Shown in pieces: positions 10,544 to 58,865 of a DNA stretch of 64,000 bases. Origin of the DNA: a virus; IMG/VR virus record IMGVR_UViG_3300047483_000490, positions 1 through 64,000 of that record; one strand, given 5' to 3'. Numbering within the stretch: position 1 is the first letter of the stretch; every line of letters begins with the position of its first letter. The translations under genes and the position numbers were made by a program. The notes beneath the pieces were generated by a model. That model was given only the letters and a program-made list of their open reading frames with translations. It ran no database searches and was not told the origin of the DNA.

Positions 10544-11974
10544 ATGAACTTAGTAGACGCTTTAAGACAAGAAGACATTTTAACAGAAAATGGTATGGCA
10601 ACTAATTCAACTTCGTTGAATGCATGTGTCGATTTATTTTTTAACATTGGTGCAATGAGAGGCCAAGACAAACAACGTTTGATCGCAACCTTTTCGAAAG
10701 CATTTAATGAAGATCCGAAGCGTGCTATGAAACTTTTGTTTTGGGCCAGAGATGTTAGAGGTGGTGCAGGTGAACGTCAAGTCTTCAAAGATATTTTAGT
10801 TTACTTAGCTGAAACTCATGATTTGGCTTTAAAACCAAACTTAGGCTTAATTGCAGAGTATGGTCGTTTTGATGACTTACTAACTTTAGTAGGAACTTAT
10901 TTAGAAAATGATGCTTTGCAAATTATTGCAGATGCTCTTAAATCTGAAAATGGTTTATGTGCAAAATGGATGCCACGTAAAGGTCAAGTAGCTGAAAAGT
11001 TACGTGCATTCTTGAAATTGTCACCAAAACAATATCGTAAAACTTTAGTTAATTTAACTAACGTTGTTGAAACTAAAATGTGTGCTAAAGAATGGGATTC
11101 TATTGAATTCGGTAAATTACCATCAGTGGCTTCAGCACGATACCAAAAAGCTTTCGGTAAAAATGCTTACGAAAGTTATTCAGCTTATATCCAATCCTTA
11201 GTGAAAGGTGAAGCTAAGATTAATGCAGGCGCAGTTTATCCTTATGATGTTGTAAAATCATTAACACACGGAAATGCAGCAGTAGCAAACGAACAATGGA
11301 AAGCCCTTCCAAATTACTTAGAAGGAGCAAACGATATGATTTTACCAGTGGTAGATGTTTCTGGTTCTATGTCTTGCTCTGCAGGAGGTAGTAAAACAGT
11401 AACATGTATGGATGTTGCAATCTCTTTAGGTCTTTATATTTCTGAAAGAAATGAAGGTCCTTTCAAAGATGCATTTATTACATTTTCAAACAATCCACAG
11501 TTACAAGTACTAAGTGGTTCATTGCAAGATCGCTACGCACAGATGTTATGTTCCGATTGGGGAATGTCAACAAATCTCGAGGCGACCTTCAAGCTGATCT
11601 TAGATCAGGCCACTAAACATAAATTGTCTCAAGACAAGATGCCAAATAAAGTTCTGATCTTGTCAGATATGGAATTTAATGCAGCAACTAGATCTAGCGG
11701 ATGGAGAAATACCGGATCAGATTGGAATCCAACTGCTCAACAAATGATTGAGAAAATGTACGAAGATGCAGGTTACAAAATGCCTCAAATCGTTTATTGG
11801 AACATTCAATCCAGAAATGGTGGAGTGCCAGTAGCATTTGACAAAGCAGGAACTGCATTAGTGTCAGGATTCTCTCCAGCAATTATGACAAGTTTACTTG
11901 GAGGAGATATTGAGTCTCCACAACAAATCATGGATAAAACAATCTTGAGCGAGAGATACGCTCCAATTGTTTAA
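10544..11974 (+). CDS. Ro60/TROVE-like vWA-domain protein (DUF2828-type)
   Basis: TENG N-terminus, RDVRGGAGER, EYGRFDDL, AKWMPR, vWA MIDAS DVSGSM and LSDMEF, VYWN, SGFS. Confidence 0.85.
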   Translation: MNLVDALRQEDILTENGMATNSTSLNACVDLFFNIGAMRGQDKQRLIATFSKAFNEDPKRAMKLLFWARDVRGGAGERQVFKDILVYLAETHDLALKPNLGLIAEYGRFDDLLTLVGTYLENDALQIIADALKSENGLCAKWMPRKGQVAEKLRAFLKLSPKQYRKTLVNLTNVVETKMCAKEWDSIEFGKLPSVASARYQKAFGKNAYESYSAYIQSLVKGEAKINAGAVYPYDVVKSLTHGNAAVANEQWKALPNYLEGANDMILPVVDVSGSMSCSAGGSKTVTCMDVAISLGLYISERNEGPFKDAFITFSNNPQLQVLSGSLQDRYAQMLCSDWGMSTNLEATFKLILDQATKHKLSQDKMPNKVLILSDMEFNAATRSSGWRNTGSDWNPTAQQMIEKMYEDAGYKMPQIVYWNIQSRNGGVPVAFDKAGTALVSGFSPAIMTSLLGGDIESPQQIMDKTILSERYAPIV

Positions 11975-11990
11975 GATATATAAAGAAAAT

Positions 11991-12048
11991 TGGTTCCTTA
12001 CAGCAAACTATAAAAAGCAATCACTTAACTAGCAAACGATTGGAACCA
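11991..12048 (+). ncRNA. CAGCAA-motif small RNA A (Y-RNA-like candidate)
   Basis: tggttcc/ggaacca terminal helix followed by tta-cagcaa; 17 nt after the TROVE-like gene. Confidence 0.65.
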
Positions 12049-12051
12049 GGT

Positions 12052-12297
12052 GGATCGGTACAGCAAAAAGTACACACACAACTATGACAAATCTGAACAA
12101 CAGCGGAGCCAGTGGTTAGTCCCGGCATTGAAGCTGCAGATACGGTGAAGGTTAACACTAGAAAATGGACCGCCAGTCATACCACCCCAACAGGCGCAAG
12201 TAGGATGTAGTCGAAGTATAGTAGACTCTCGCGAAAGCTAAGCCGAAGACTATAAAGAGGGTTATTCTGCCGAGAAGAAAATCACGAACAACGATCC
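12052..12297 (+). ncRNA. CAGCAA-motif RNA B (long, multibranch)
   Basis: ggatcg/cgatcc terminal helix + gta-cagcaa; GC-rich internal helices. Confidence 0.6.
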
Positions 12298-56536: not shown

Positions 56537-56593
56537 AGGATGCTTCCAGCAAATTTACAAAACTTTATATGGAAAAGCAAAACATAGCATCCT
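56537..56593 (+). ncRNA. CAGCAA-motif small RNA C
   Basis: aggatgct/agcatcct helix + tc-cagcaa. Confidence 0.65.
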
Positions 56594-58109: not shown

Positions 58110-58250
58110 AGGTTTCTTACAGCAATTAAAATTCTATAGGAACTGGTATCGAAAGATGTGTAGGTTCGAGTCCTACCTCTCCAACAAATTTTAAAATAAT
58201 TGGAGAGTGGTGAAATTGGTAGACACGCTAGTCAGAAAAAACAGAAACCT
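58110..58250 (+). ncRNA. CAGCAA-motif RNA D carrying circularly permuted tRNA-Leu(UAG)
   Basis: aggtttct/agaaacct helix; order variable arm, T arm, acceptor hairpin, D arm. Confidence 0.8.
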
Positions 58251-58260
58251 GAAAATTATT

Positions 58261-58319
58261 GGAATACCTACAGCAAGCTTACCAAACTTTGACTTTTACT
58301 CAAACCAAATGCGTATTCC
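58261..58319 (+). ncRNA. CAGCAA-motif RNA E carrying tRNA-Lys(UUU)-like anticodon stem-loop
   Basis: ggaatac/gtattcc helix; tttga-cttttac-tcaaa. Confidence 0.7.
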
Positions 58320-58336
58320 GTTAAATTATTTTATAA

Positions 58337-58471
58337 AGGATGGTTCCAGCAACACATACAAATTAGGCTGTTAACCTCGTGGTCGTCGGTTCGAACCCGG
58401 CCTTTGAACACCGCCTTAAGTGGCACGTTCAGAGTAGCTCAGTTGGTAGAGCACGTACAAAAGCCCATCCT
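58337..58471 (+). ncRNA. CAGCAA-motif RNA F carrying circularly permuted tRNA-Asn(GUU)
   Basis: aggatgg/ccatcct helix; agg-ctgttaa-cct, T arm, acceptor hairpin, D arm. Confidence 0.8.
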
Positions 58472-58559
58472 GATAAATTAAAAGTGTGTCTTGGTCCGCT
58501 CTGGCGAAAGTTAACGACAAGGTCCCGGTTGGCAGAAGGCCTCTGATCCAACCCAAAAC

Positions 58560-58634: not shown

Positions 58635-58827
58635 GTAGATTTTTTAGCGTGGCGTGGATTCAGCAGACTTGTTAAATCTTAAAAGAAACAAGATAAGGTA
58701 ATAAGAATCAAGTTTGACAGTGATTATCTTTGAACAACTGTACTGCTTTGGTGATCGATCGCCCGTTCCCAGTATCGAATGAAAACTCGTAAGGCAAGAT
58801 GCAAAACTGTAGCGCATCACCAAAGTT

Positions 58828-58865
58828 AAAAGGGAACCCGTGCACATGGTTCCCTTTTCTTTTTT
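58828..58865 (+). terminator. intrinsic terminator
   Basis: aaaagggaacc...ggttccctttt + U tract. Confidence 0.8.

What the first reader, a model, noticed from the sequence alone, without database searches (positions are those of the whole stretch)
58337..58471. Circularly permuted tRNA-Asn(GUU) opened in the anticodon stem
Seen: order is agg-ctgttaa-cctcg, tggtc, T arm gtcgg-ttcgaac-ccggc, ctttgaac, hairpin linker (gcc-ttaagt-ggc), gttcagag, D arm tagctcagttggtagagc, acg. Reassembled it gives a complete cloverleaf with stem cgagg/cctcg, broken between positions 28 and 29, so the anticodon loop stays intact. It has the same CAGCAA handle as the Leu element but a different break point, which implies independent capture of tRNAs into the scaffold. 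No canonical tRNA-Asn is present in this window.
Basis: partly seen in the sequence, partly recalled or inferred. Interest (0 to 1): 0.85.

Follow-up and report, generated by a model that had tools for sequence, protein, structure and literature searches.

The report
tRNA-Asn mimic on Ro60-like handle
This is not a scrambled tRNA gene but a small phage RNA that carries a complete tRNA-Asn look-alike on a conserved "handle", and that handle most likely docks it to a phage protein shaped like the RNA-surveillance protein Ro60; I found this branch of the Ro60/Y-RNA system neither in Rfam nor in the papers I could search.

Summary
At 58337-58471 the 3' part of a tRNA-Asn(GUU) comes first, then a closed acceptor hairpin, then the 5' part, all clamped by a 7-bp stem followed by UUCCAGCAA. 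Re-joined, it is called tRNA-Asn.

The interpretation as a permuted tRNA gene is not supported:
- In 16 homologs the acceptor arm is always a closed hairpin. Its sequence changes freely (7 of 7 pairs covary) and it is often capped by UUCG-type loops.
- G34 is A in two homologs.
- A complete close relative of this phage has two ordinary tRNA-Asn genes.

The order T arm, closed acceptor hairpin, D arm is that of the tRNA-like domain of bacterial YrlA Y RNAs (weak Rfam hit, 30.6 bits). The handle (stem plus YUNCNGCAA) occurs six times in the window. Two copies lie directly 3' of a DUF2828/DUF7788 gene whose model matches Ro60 over its full length (Z 18). The same gene-handle pairing recurs in 38 of 51 related loci and in cultured phages of at least eight bacterial genera. 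Mycobacteriophage Rumpelstiltskin has the same Asn-type RNA, broken at the same point.

Best reading: a Y-RNA-like partner of a Ro60-like protein. Binding and function are inferred. This scan found the same family earlier on other DNA.

The parts
58337..58343 (+). Handle stem, 5' strand (AGGAUGG); pairs with 58465-58471
   Evidence: Invariant in 16 homologs. The stem sequence differs but stays paired among the paralogs in the window and in the mycobacteriophage counterpart.
58344..58352 (+). Handle motif UUCCAGCAA (family consensus YUNCNGCAA), presumed protein-docking site
   Evidence: Variants UUACUGCAA, UUGCUGCAA and UUACCGCAA occur in homologs. The same motif lies beside DUF2828 genes in many phages.
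58353..58364 (+). A-rich 5' spacer between motif and cargo
   Evidence: It is 12 nt long in both the Asn and Leu elements.
58365..58377 (+). Anticodon-like hairpin: 3-bp stem AGG/CCU (tRNA positions 29-31/39-41) with 7-nt loop CUGUUAA (GUU)
   Evidence: The loop is identical in 14/16 homologs and is CUAUUAA in 2. The counterpart CCA-CUGUUAA-UGG occurs in mycobacteriophages Rumpelstiltskin and Gardann.
58378..58384 (+). CG (positions 42-43, pairs with CG at 58454-58455) and variable loop UGGUC
   Evidence: invariant. C48 can form the Levitt pair with G15.
58385..58401 (+). T arm GUCGG-UUCGAAC-CCGGC
   Evidence: Two pairs show compensatory changes (ATGGG/CCCAT) and the loop is nearly invariant.
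58402..58434 (+). Closed acceptor-like hairpin: CUUUGAA(C) / (G)UUCAGAG joined by a linker with its own small hairpin GCC-UUAAGU-GGC (58413-58424)
   Evidence: All 7 pairs covary. In homologs the arm is replaced by unrelated short hairpins with UUCG-type loops.
58435..58455 (+). U8-A9, D arm GCUC-AGUUGGUA-GAGC, A26, and C27-G28
   Evidence: The D stem is invariant. U8, A14, G18 and G19 are kept in all 16 homologs.
58456..58464 (+). A-rich 3' spacer UACAAAAGC
   Evidence: UACGCAAAAAAC occupies the same place in the mycobacteriophage RNA.
58465..58471 (+). Handle stem, 3' strand (CCAUCCU), followed by G
58110..58250 (+). Paralog: same handle (GGUUUCU/AGAAACC + UACAGCAA) carrying a Leu-like class II tRNA body opened in the anticodon loop
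   Evidence: Model R1 scores it 36.7 bits. In L017/L020 the acceptor is closed by GAAA, the variable arm is lost and the 'anticodon' is not conserved.
58261..58319 (+). Paralog: handle (GGAAUAC/GUAUUCC + CUACAGCAA) carrying only a hairpin
   Evidence: The CUUUUAC loop is not kept in L017/L020.
56537..56593 (+). Paralog: handle (AGGAUGC/GCAUCCU + UUCCAGCAA) with a short unstructured A-rich cargo
11991..12048 (+). Paralog directly 3' of the Ro60-like gene: handle (UGGUUCC/GGAACCA + UUACAGCAA), 58 nt
   Evidence: Weak Rfam Dicty_Class_I hit, 17.9 bits.
12052..12297 (+). Paralog: handle (GGAUCG/CGAUCC + GUACAGCAA) closing a ~220-nt structured cargo, followed by a terminator-like hairpin and U run
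   Evidence: The closing stem covaries across relatives: GGATAG/CTATCC and GGAACG/CGTTCC.
10544..11974 (+). Gene for a 476-aa Ro60-like protein (Pfam DUF2828 + DUF7788; helical ring part plus vWA with DxSxS), presumed partner of the handle RNAs
   Evidence: Pfam hits. PHROG 850 'RNA-binding protein'. AF2 model pLDDT 78. Foldseek top 13 are all Ro60, best E 8.6e-8. VIA-align Z 18.1 over 398 residues to phage phiLo Ro60 and Z 17.4 to Xenopus Ro60.

Best explanation
The element is a non-coding RNA of about 135 nt, made as part of a small RNA/tRNA transcription unit. A 7-bp terminal stem plus the single-stranded motif UUCCAGCAA forms a 'handle'. This handle is shared by at least six RNAs of this phage and accompanies the gene of a Ro60-like ring protein (DUF2828/DUF7788) in very different phages. 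The handle most likely docks the RNA to that protein, as the conserved stem of a Y RNA docks it to Ro60.

The cargo is a tRNA-Asn-derived body in the order anticodon hairpin, variable loop, T arm, closed acceptor hairpin, D arm. It can fold into a tRNA-like L shape with all tertiary-core nucleotides but has no free acceptor end. It therefore mimics a tRNA rather than serving in translation. By analogy with Y RNAs, which tether Ro60 to other proteins or gate its cavity, the tRNA-like body would bring a tRNA-recognising enzyme or nuclease to the ring, or occupy it.

Shown: the anatomy, the conservation and covariation, the tRNA-Asn origin, the Ro60-like fold of the protein, and the gene-handle association.

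Inferred: that the protein binds the handle, that the RNA is expressed in this phage, and what the mimic recruits.
For: Anatomy and conservation:
- Re-joined, the element is called tRNA-Asn. 16 homologs have covarying T and acceptor stems.
- The acceptor arm is always closed and its sequence is free, while the D and T loops, variable loop and anticodon loop are nearly invariant.

Resemblance to YrlA:
- Rfam YrlA (RF02553) aligns over the full model at 30.6 bits, E 2e-4. The T, acceptor-like and D arms are matched in that order.
- This is the architecture described for YrlA (PMC4201824).

The handle family and the protein:
- Six handle RNAs lie in the window. Two are directly 3' of the DUF2828/DUF7788 gene on the same strand.
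- The protein model matches Ro60 over its full length.
- In 51 distinct related loci, 38 have a handle within 400 nt 3' of the gene on the gene strand, against 1 on the opposite strand.
- Handle RNAs lie beside the gene in phages of Escherichia, Mycobacterium, Listeria, Campylobacter, Staphylococcus, Bacillus and Sinorhizobium. In Vibrio and Fusobacterium phages a handle-like element sits in the gene's 5' leader.

Reach of the Asn type:
- A covariance model built only from this clade finds the RNA 3' of the 'Ro-like RNA binding protein' gene of mycobacteriophage Rumpelstiltskin at 56.5 bits, E 3e-11. All helices are kept through compensatory changes and the 28/29 break is the same.

Indirect expression evidence:
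- In Listeria phage CKA15, three very abundant non-coding transcripts lie upstream of the homologous gene. The authors suggested they might be Y RNAs (PMC12282133).
Against: - There is no direct evidence that the DUF2828 protein binds these RNAs.
- This element lies 46 kb from the gene, not within the 4 kb typical of yrlA.
- The motif CNGCAA differs from the GNCGAAN0-1G or GGUCCGA motifs tied to Ro60 binding.
- The Rfam YrlA score is far below the gathering score (30.6 against 69).
- The strong conservation of the CUGUUAA loop is not explained by a pure docking or tether model.
- Related mycobacteriophages lack the anticodon hairpin, so its role is unclear.
- Earlier agents of this scan reached the same reading, but those are unchecked AI notes and do not count as independent evidence.
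Confidence: 0.72

Rival explanations
1. A tRNA-Asn decoy or sponge that works without the Ro60-like protein. The displayed anticodon loop and tRNA body soak up a host factor that reads tRNA-Asn or the GUN anticodon loops (an anticodon nuclease, tRNA-guanine transglycosylase, AsnRS). The handle serves only to stabilise the RNA ends or guide its processing.
For: - The CUGUUAA loop is identical in 14/16 homologs and in two mycobacteriophages.
- A Sinorhizobium phage RNA of the same build shows AUGUCAA, an Asp-like loop that also contains UGU.
- The close relative G001 encodes a T4 Rnl1-type RNA ligase, which points to a setting of tRNA damage and repair.
Against: - The handle is shared with RNAs whose cargo is not tRNA-like.
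- The handle tracks the DUF2828 gene strand-specifically across phyla.
- The loop changes to CUAUUAA or CUGGUAA, or is absent, in relatives.
- No nuclease target is known here.
Confidence: 0.12
2. A genuine circularly permuted tRNA-Asn gene. The transcript is cut in the acceptor linker (RNase P and a 3' nuclease), receives CCA, and works in translation as a two-piece or re-ligated tRNA.
For: - The cloverleaf complement is complete, with no overlap or gap.
- The window copy keeps a 7-8 bp acceptor stem with a 17-nt linker.
- The orthologous canonical tRNA-Asn of this phage is damaged.
- M. smegmatis YrlA can be cut by RNase P and receive CCA in vitro (PMC4201824, outline, section 8).
- A relative has an Rnl1-type ligase.
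Against: - In most homologs the acceptor arm is a short hairpin of 5-8 bp capped by a tetraloop, with no discriminator or linker.
- G34 is A in two lineages.
- The complete relative G001 carries two canonical tRNA-Asn genes besides the element.
- There is no bulge-helix-bulge junction.
- The Leu-like sister element has no conserved anticodon at all, and the window has two normal tRNA-Leu(UAG) genes.
Confidence: 0.05
3. A cis-acting punctuation or processing element of the tRNA operon. The stem plus CNGCAA is a nuclease or processing signal, and the tRNA-like part merely attracts RNase P and RNase Z to cut the polycistronic transcript.
For: - The elements sit between tRNAs in many phages, only a few nucleotides from tRNA ends.
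- A sigma-70-like site lies just upstream of the cluster and a terminator-like hairpin at its end.
Against: - Handle RNAs also stand alone next to the DUF2828 gene with their own terminator, far from tRNAs.
- A processing signal does not explain the strand-specific linkage to one protein family.
- It also does not explain cargoes of up to 220 nt with a covarying closing stem.
Confidence: 0.05
4. A decaying remnant of two tandem tRNA-Asn copies: the 3' half of one plus the 5' half of the next.
For: Tandem canonical tRNAs do score with the central part of the model (for example L032 8017-8096). The order alone can therefore arise trivially.
Against: - The element is conserved as a unit in 16 homologs and across phyla.
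- Compensatory changes occur in the hairpin that joins the 'two copies'.
- The clamp stem is constant and the two parts complement each other exactly.
Confidence: 0.01

Closest known systems
YrlA-type bacterial and phage Y RNAs bound by Ro60/Rsr (Rfam RF02553; Chen et al. 2014, PMC4201824)
   Same: - The 5' and 3' ends pair in a terminal stem with a conserved motif on the 5' side.
- The tRNA-like domain has the order (V) - T arm - closed acceptor-like hairpin - D arm, with tRNA tertiary nucleotides kept.
- Several different Y RNAs occur per genome.
- The RNAs are linked to a ring-shaped TROVE/vWA-fold protein gene.
   Different: - The motif is YUNCNGCAA, not GNCGAAN0-1G.
- The protein is a DUF2828/DUF7788 protein that the TROVE Pfam model does not detect.
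- The Rfam score is 30.6 bits against a gathering score of 69.
- This copy keeps a whole anticodon hairpin with GUU, which YrlA lacks.
- It lies 46 kb from the protein gene.
Thermus phage phiLo Ro60 with Yrl1/Yrl2 (PMC12135203; PDB 9KOP, 9L5Y)
   Same: It is a phage-encoded Ro60-fold protein, and the best structural match of the window's protein (Z 18.1). It has phage-encoded partner RNAs next to the gene.
   Different: The phiLo RNAs were picked by a CGAA motif and are stem-bulge-stem RNAs without a tRNA-like body. Sequence identity of the proteins is about 17%.
Circularly permuted tRNA genes of Cyanidioschyzon merolae and some green algae and archaea (from my own knowledge)
   Same: The 3' half precedes the 5' half, with a short linker between the acceptor strands.
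   Different: Those genes mature through a circular intermediate made at a bulge-helix-bulge junction by the splicing endonuclease. They are then opened by RNase P and tRNase Z to give working tRNAs. Here there is no such junction, the acceptor arm is a capped hairpin in most homologs, and canonical tRNA-Asn genes coexist in the complete relative.
Dictyostelid Class I RNAs (Rfam RF01414; Kjellin et al. 2021, PMC7919456)
   Same: - A short terminal stem of variable, covarying sequence with a conserved 5' G.
- An adjacent single-stranded motif CCUUACAGCAA whose invariant positions (U3, C6, C9, A10, A11) match the phage handle.
- A CUG(U) 3' end and a variable remainder.
- Weak Rfam hits on two sister elements: 24.1 and 17.9 bits.
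   Different: - They are eukaryotic, 42-65 nt, with their own promoter element and no tRNA-like cargo.
- Their known binder is an RRM protein.
- The scores are below the gathering score (41.5), and this element itself gives no hit.
- The likeness may be chance or convergence.

Membership tests
YrlA (Rfam RF02553) Y RNA | Score at or above the Rfam gathering score (69 bits) | tested here: not met
   30.6 bits, E 2.3e-4, full model length; no hit at the gathering threshold.
YrlA (Rfam RF02553) Y RNA | tRNA-like domain in the order T arm - closed acceptor-like (AS) hairpin - D arm, with conserved tRNA tertiary nucleotides | tested here: met
   U8, A14, G15/C48, G18, G19, the UUCGA T-loop core (54-58) and C61 are present. 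In the 16 homologs only T-loop positions 59-60 vary.
YrlA (Rfam RF02553) Y RNA | GNCGAAN0-1G motif near the 5' end (presumed Rsr site) | tested here: not met
   The 5' side carries UUCCAGCAA instead. No GNCGAA occurs in 58337-58471.
YrlA (Rfam RF02553) Y RNA | Encoded within about 4 kb of, and on the same strand as, a Ro60 (TROVE) gene | tested here: not met
   There is no Pfam TROVE match in the record or in the complete relative. The Ro60-like DUF2828 gene is on the same strand but 46 kb away. Two sister RNAs do lie directly 3' of it.
YrlA (Rfam RF02553) Y RNA | Bound by Ro60/Rsr; carries tRNA modifications | not testable with these tools
   Needs immunoprecipitation and modification mapping.
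Handle RNAs of DUF2828 Ro60-like proteins (family seen in this scan; not in Rfam 15 or the papers searched) | Terminal stem of 6-8 bp followed within 1-4 nt by CNGCAA, with variable cargo and an A-rich 3' spacer | tested here: met
Handle RNAs of DUF2828 Ro60-like proteins (family seen in this scan; not in Rfam 15 or the papers searched) | A DUF2828/DUF7788 gene with a Ro60-like fold in the same genome, with handle RNAs adjacent to it | tested here: met
   The association was also seen in 38/51 related loci and in cultured phages.
Circularly permuted tRNA gene (functional tRNA after processing) | 3' half upstream of 5' half, together giving one complete cloverleaf | tested here: met
Circularly permuted tRNA gene (functional tRNA after processing) | Bulge-helix-bulge junction at the transcript ends for endonuclease cutting and circularisation | tested here: not met
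   The junction is a 7-bp stem flanked by 21-nt and 9-nt single strands, with no 3-4-3 motif.
Circularly permuted tRNA gene (functional tRNA after processing) | Acceptor linker that can be removed to give free 5' and 3' ends, conserved as such | tested here: not met
   In homologs the arm is a 5-8 bp hairpin with UUCG/UUCA/UCGG-type loops and no discriminator or linker.
Circularly permuted tRNA gene (functional tRNA after processing) | Anticodon under decoding constraint; fills a decoding need | tested here: not met
   G34 is A in 2/16 homologs. Relative G001 has two canonical tRNA-Asn genes.
Dictyostelid Class I RNA (Rfam RF01414) | Gathering score of 41.5 bits; 42-65 nt; 6-bp stem plus the 11-nt motif | tested here: not met
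   This element gives no hit. Sister elements score 24.1 and 17.9 bits. The motif's invariant positions match. This element is 135 nt long.
Two-piece (permuted) tmRNA | Permuted tRNA-like domain plus a tag reading frame | tested here: not met
   ARAGORN, which detects permuted tmRNA, finds none. There is no tag frame or pseudoknots.

The most novel reading that the evidence does not exclude
The phage displays a complete tRNA-Asn look-alike, anticodon loop included, on a Ro60-like ring as bait. The ribonucleoprotein captures, tethers or blocks a host factor that reads tRNA-Asn or the GUN anticodon loops, such as an anticodon nuclease of a defence system or the queuosine-inserting enzyme. The RNA would then be the targeting module of a phage counter-defence or tRNA-surveillance particle, and different cargoes on the same handle would aim the ring at different targets.
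Probability: 0.15. Interest if true: 0.8.

Novelty: new variant of a known kind. Interest (0 to 1): 0.62.

Why it matters
Ro60 and its Y RNAs are conserved from bacteria to humans, yet what the tRNA-like domain of bacterial Y RNAs does is still unknown.

Here the same logic (ring protein, docking stem, exchangeable RNA module) appears in a second, sequence-divergent protein family, DUF2828. A homolog of that protein is present in 711 cultured phage records, including Felix O1-type, P100-type and cluster L phages that are easy to work with.

The RNAs carry a different docking motif and a range of cargoes, from nothing to a whole tRNA with its anticodon loop. That gives a tractable system for asking what Y-RNA tRNA mimics recruit.

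It also has a practical side for annotation. These elements are missed by tRNA finders, or mis-called: one is annotated as tRNA-Asn in a RefSeq mycobacteriophage record.

Tried and rejected
- **YrlA-style alternative pairing.** The Rfam alignment suggested ACACAU/GUGUGU and UUAGG/CCUGA. I rejected it because these pairings are not kept in homologs, whereas the stem next to the motif is kept in every paralog.
- **TROVE Pfam search.** No match in the record or in five relatives. The Ro60-like gene was found only through its position next to two handle RNAs.
- **RtcB.** No match in G000 or G001.
- **blastn of the element against cultured phages.** No match.
- **Amoebal DUF2828 proteins.** A profile search for homologs was saturated by 8000 close phage relatives, and the protein atlas gave only viral clusters. 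I therefore could not test whether Dictyostelium has such a protein. The 2011 paper listing the four Class I RNA-binding proteins is not held.
- **Literature.** Searches for DUF2828, Ro-like plus mycobacteriophage, and ACAGCAA plus Y RNA found no description of this RNA family.
- **Loop-to-motif pairing.** The anticodon loop CUGUUA could pair with the UAACAG form of the handle motif seen in some phages. In this phage only 4 bp would form, so I dropped the idea.
- **Retron-like reading.** A closing stem followed by AGC resembles a retron, but no reverse transcriptase is nearby.
- **Permuted tmRNA.** Rejected.
Full report
**What is there.** The window belongs to an IMG/VR virus record of 79.6 kb, judged about 30% complete. 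Relatives reach 256 kb. It carries 17 ARAGORN tRNAs.

- a 7-nt strand AGGATGG;
- TTCCAGCAA;
- a 12-nt spacer;
- the hairpin AGG-CTGTTAA-CCT;
- CG and TGGTC;
- a T arm;
- the acceptor 3' strand;
- a 17-nt linker with its own small hairpin;
- the acceptor 5' strand;
- a D arm;
- A-CG;
- a 9-nt A-rich spacer;
- CCATCCT, which pairs with the first strand.

ARAGORN sees nothing in the native order. It calls tRNA-Asn(GTT) when the 5' part is placed in front of the 3' part. The re-joined body is 73% identical to a canonical tRNA-Asn of a related phage.

**Conservation.** Neighbouring-gene searches and a DNA pattern gave 16 distinct homologs.
- 98.2% of cells are paired.
- Nine pairs changed on both sides: all seven acceptor pairs and two T-stem pairs.
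- No shuffle out of 500 reached the covariation score, and the slid controls collapse.
- The handle stem, the 3-bp anticodon stem, the CG/CG pairs and the D stem never vary in this clade, so within it they are uninformative.

What varies is telling. The acceptor arm has a completely free sequence. In many homologs it is a short hairpin capped by UUCG, UUCA or UCGG-type loops. The D loop, T loop, variable loop and CUGUUAA loop are nearly fixed. Selection therefore keeps a tRNA-shaped fold but not a usable acceptor end.

**Why it is not a permuted tRNA gene.**
- A tetraloop-capped acceptor hairpin offers no discriminator and no linker to remove.
- G34 is A in two homologs of different backgrounds.
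- The complete close relative G001 carries the element at 94% identity. It has 27 tRNAs, including two canonical tRNA-Asn, a tRNA-Leu(UAG) and a tRNA-Lys(UUU).
- The junction is a plain stem with long single strands, not a bulge-helix-bulge.
- The Leu-like sister element (58110-58250) has no conserved anticodon. In L017/L020 its acceptor is closed by GAAA and its variable arm is lost. The window itself has two normal tRNA-Leu(UAG) genes.

**What it resembles.** A permissive Rfam scan aligns the element over the whole YrlA model (RF02553). The score is 30.6 bits, E 2e-4, well below the gathering score of 69. The T arm, closed acceptor-like hairpin and D arm are matched in that order. Chen et al. 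2014 describe exactly this tRNA-like domain for bacterial Y RNAs, the partners of Ro60/Rsr. They also describe a GNCGAAN0-1G motif and a position within 4 kb of a TROVE gene (PMC4201824). Those last two features are not met here.

**The handle and its protein.** The stem-plus-CAGCAA module occurs six times in the window:
- 11991-12048;
- 12052-12297;
- 56537-56593;
- 58110-58250;
- 58261-58319;
- 58337-58471.

The stem sequences differ but always pair. The closing stem of the 246-nt member covaries across relatives.

The first two copies lie directly 3' of ORF 10544-11974, on the same strand. That 476-aa protein matches Pfam DUF2828 and DUF7788 and PHROG 850 'RNA-binding protein'. An AlphaFold model built from a 24-sequence alignment (pLDDT 78) was compared with solved structures:
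- Foldseek's top 13 hits are all Ro60 proteins, best E 8.6e-8.
- VIA-align gives Z 18.1 over 398 residues to Thermus phage phiLo Ro60 and Z 17.4 to Xenopus Ro60.
- vWA-only proteins follow at Z 11.
- The vWA DxSxS metal site is invariant.

The TROVE Pfam model itself does not detect the protein. This explains why the 2014 survey, which was restricted to TROVE-annotated genomes, would not have covered such phages.

**Generality.** Among 51 distinct IMG/VR loci with a homolog of 59-94% identity, 38 have a handle within 400 nt downstream on the gene strand. Only 1 has one on the opposite strand and 3 have one upstream.

tblastn finds the protein in 711 cultured phage records. In nine I inspected, handle RNAs lie beside the gene or in its leader:

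| Phage | Handle RNAs |
|---|---|
| Escherichia phage JH2 | four copies, one with a tRNA-like body |
| Mycobacteriophage Rumpelstiltskin | three |
| Listeria LP-124 | three, with RtcB nearby |
| Campylobacter NCTC12673 | two |
| Staphylococcus PG-2021_88 | three |
| Bacillus Izhevsk | four |
| Sinorhizobium phiM7 | present |
| Vibrio V09 | a handle-like element over the gene's ribosome-binding site |
| Fusobacterium phiKSUM | a handle-like element just upstream of the gene's start |

A covariance model built only from the 16 sequences of this clade finds the middle Rumpelstiltskin RNA at 56.5 bits, E 3e-11, over the full length. It has:
- handle GGACUCC/GGAGUCC plus UACAGCAA;
- hairpin CCA-CUGUUAA-UGG;
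- CG;
- T arm, closed acceptor and D arm;
- GCG;
- an A-rich spacer.

The break between positions 28 and 29 is the same. Other cluster L phages have CUGGUAA in the loop (Lewan), or lack the anticodon hairpin and are opened in the anticodon loop instead (MsGreen, Rose5). The Asn type is therefore old or strongly constrained. The anticodon hairpin is an optional feature of the class.

**Expression.** I could not test expression for this phage. In the P100-like Listeria phage CKA15, three very abundant non-coding transcripts lie within 2 kb upstream of the homologous gene, on the same strand. The authors suggested they might be Y RNAs, and the protein was detected in purified virions (PMC12282133). 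I did not check that their coordinates coincide with the three handle RNAs I see in the related LP-124.

**Mechanism.** Shown:
- the anatomy;
- the tRNA-Asn origin;
- selection for a tRNA-like fold without a free acceptor end;
- the Ro60-like fold of the neighbouring-family protein;
- the strand-specific association of handle and gene across phyla.

Inferred by analogy with Ro60 and Y RNAs:
- The handle docks the RNA on the ring.
- The tRNA-like body brings in or blocks a tRNA-recognising partner.

The near-fixed CUGUUAA loop hints at a partner that reads the tRNA-Asn anticodon loop. Its loss or change in relatives argues against a universal requirement.

**Novelty.** The kind (Ro60-like protein plus Y-like RNA with a tRNA mimic) is known. 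The new elements are the DUF2828 branch, its CNGCAA handle, and a cargo that keeps a whole anticodon hairpin. I found none of these in Rfam 15 or in the searchable papers. I rate it a new variant of a known kind.

Earlier agents of this scan reported the same family on other DNA in many genomes. I reached the reading before looking. Their notes agree with mine but are not independent evidence.

**Dictyostelid Class I RNAs.** The handle also resembles these RNAs. Shared features are the 5' G, a 6-bp covarying stem, the motif CCUUACAGCAA with the same invariant positions, and a CUG(U) end (PMC7919456). Weak Rfam hits fall on two sister elements. I could not test whether amoebae have the protein. 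I treat the amoeba link as a lead only.

Noticed in passing
window 58484-58559: A conserved ~75-nt structured RNA lies between the Asn-type element and tRNA-Gly. It has two hairpin domains with compensatory changes (for example CUUG/CAAG to CUCG/CGAG, and GGUUGG/CCAACC to GGUAGG/CCUACC) and conserved single strands (GGUMCGCUC, AACGAC). In other phages it is followed by a terminator rather than a tRNA, so it is an RNA of its own. It has no Rfam match and no CNGCAA handle.
   Followed up: partly
window 12052-12297: A 246-nt handle RNA lies right after the Ro60-like gene. Its closing stem GGAUCG/CGAUCC covaries across relatives (GGAUAG/CUAUCC, GGAACG/CGUUCC). Its ~220-nt cargo is conserved and G+C-rich, and its identity is unknown; only weak chance-level Rfam hits were found.
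   Followed up: partly
window 34068-34132: A tRNA-like gene of 65 nt (Rfam tRNA 39.4 bits, missed by ARAGORN). It is the ortholog of a canonical tRNA-Asn of the complete relative G001, with a 7-nt deletion that removes most of the anticodon stem-loop. It is either a broken tRNA-Asn or an arm-less variant.
   Followed up: partly
window 31200-31321: An Rfam tRNA hit of 122 nt (50.5 bits) that ARAGORN does not call. It may be a tRNA with a long insertion or intron.
   Followed up: no
window 58640-58865: After tRNA-Gly there is a further conserved non-coding stretch. It includes a 10-bp closed domain (CUUUGGUGAU...AUCACCAAAG, about 58747-58826) and a terminator-like hairpin with a U run (about 58828-58865). 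It is conserved at 78-83% in L013/L014.
   Followed up: no
L171 2957-2996 (Vibrio phage V09) and L176 2917-2961 (Fusobacterium phage phiKSUM): A handle-like element (stem plus UUACAGCAA or UAACAGCAA) sits in the 5' leader of the Ro60-like gene. In V09 it overlaps the ribosome-binding site and start codon; in phiKSUM it ends about 30 nt before the start. This may mean the protein controls its own translation.
   Followed up: no
L290 2186-2256 (Mycobacterium phage Gardann, NC_031124): The RefSeq record annotates a 'tRNA-Asn' that lies inside the handle RNA of the Asn type (model hit 2183-2308). This is probably a mis-call caused by the anticodon hairpin and T arm.
   Followed up: partly
L174 1530-1650 (Sinorhizobium phage phiM7): An RNA of the same build is closed by a 15-bp stem, with ACAGCAC in place of CAGCAA. 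Its anticodon-like loop AUGUCAA is Asp-like and, like Asn, contains the UGU that queuosine insertion needs.
   Followed up: no
window 58110-58250 and 11991-12048: Both give weak Rfam hits to Dictyostelium Class I RNA (24.1 and 17.9 bits) through the stem plus CUUACAGCAA and the CUG end. The likeness to an unexplained amoebal RNA class is striking but untested.
   Followed up: partly
G001:C1:5771-6361 (locus L286): The complete close relative encodes a T4 Rnl1-type RNA ligase (67 bits) about 7 kb from its Ro60-like gene. No match was found in the window's own incomplete record.
   Followed up: no
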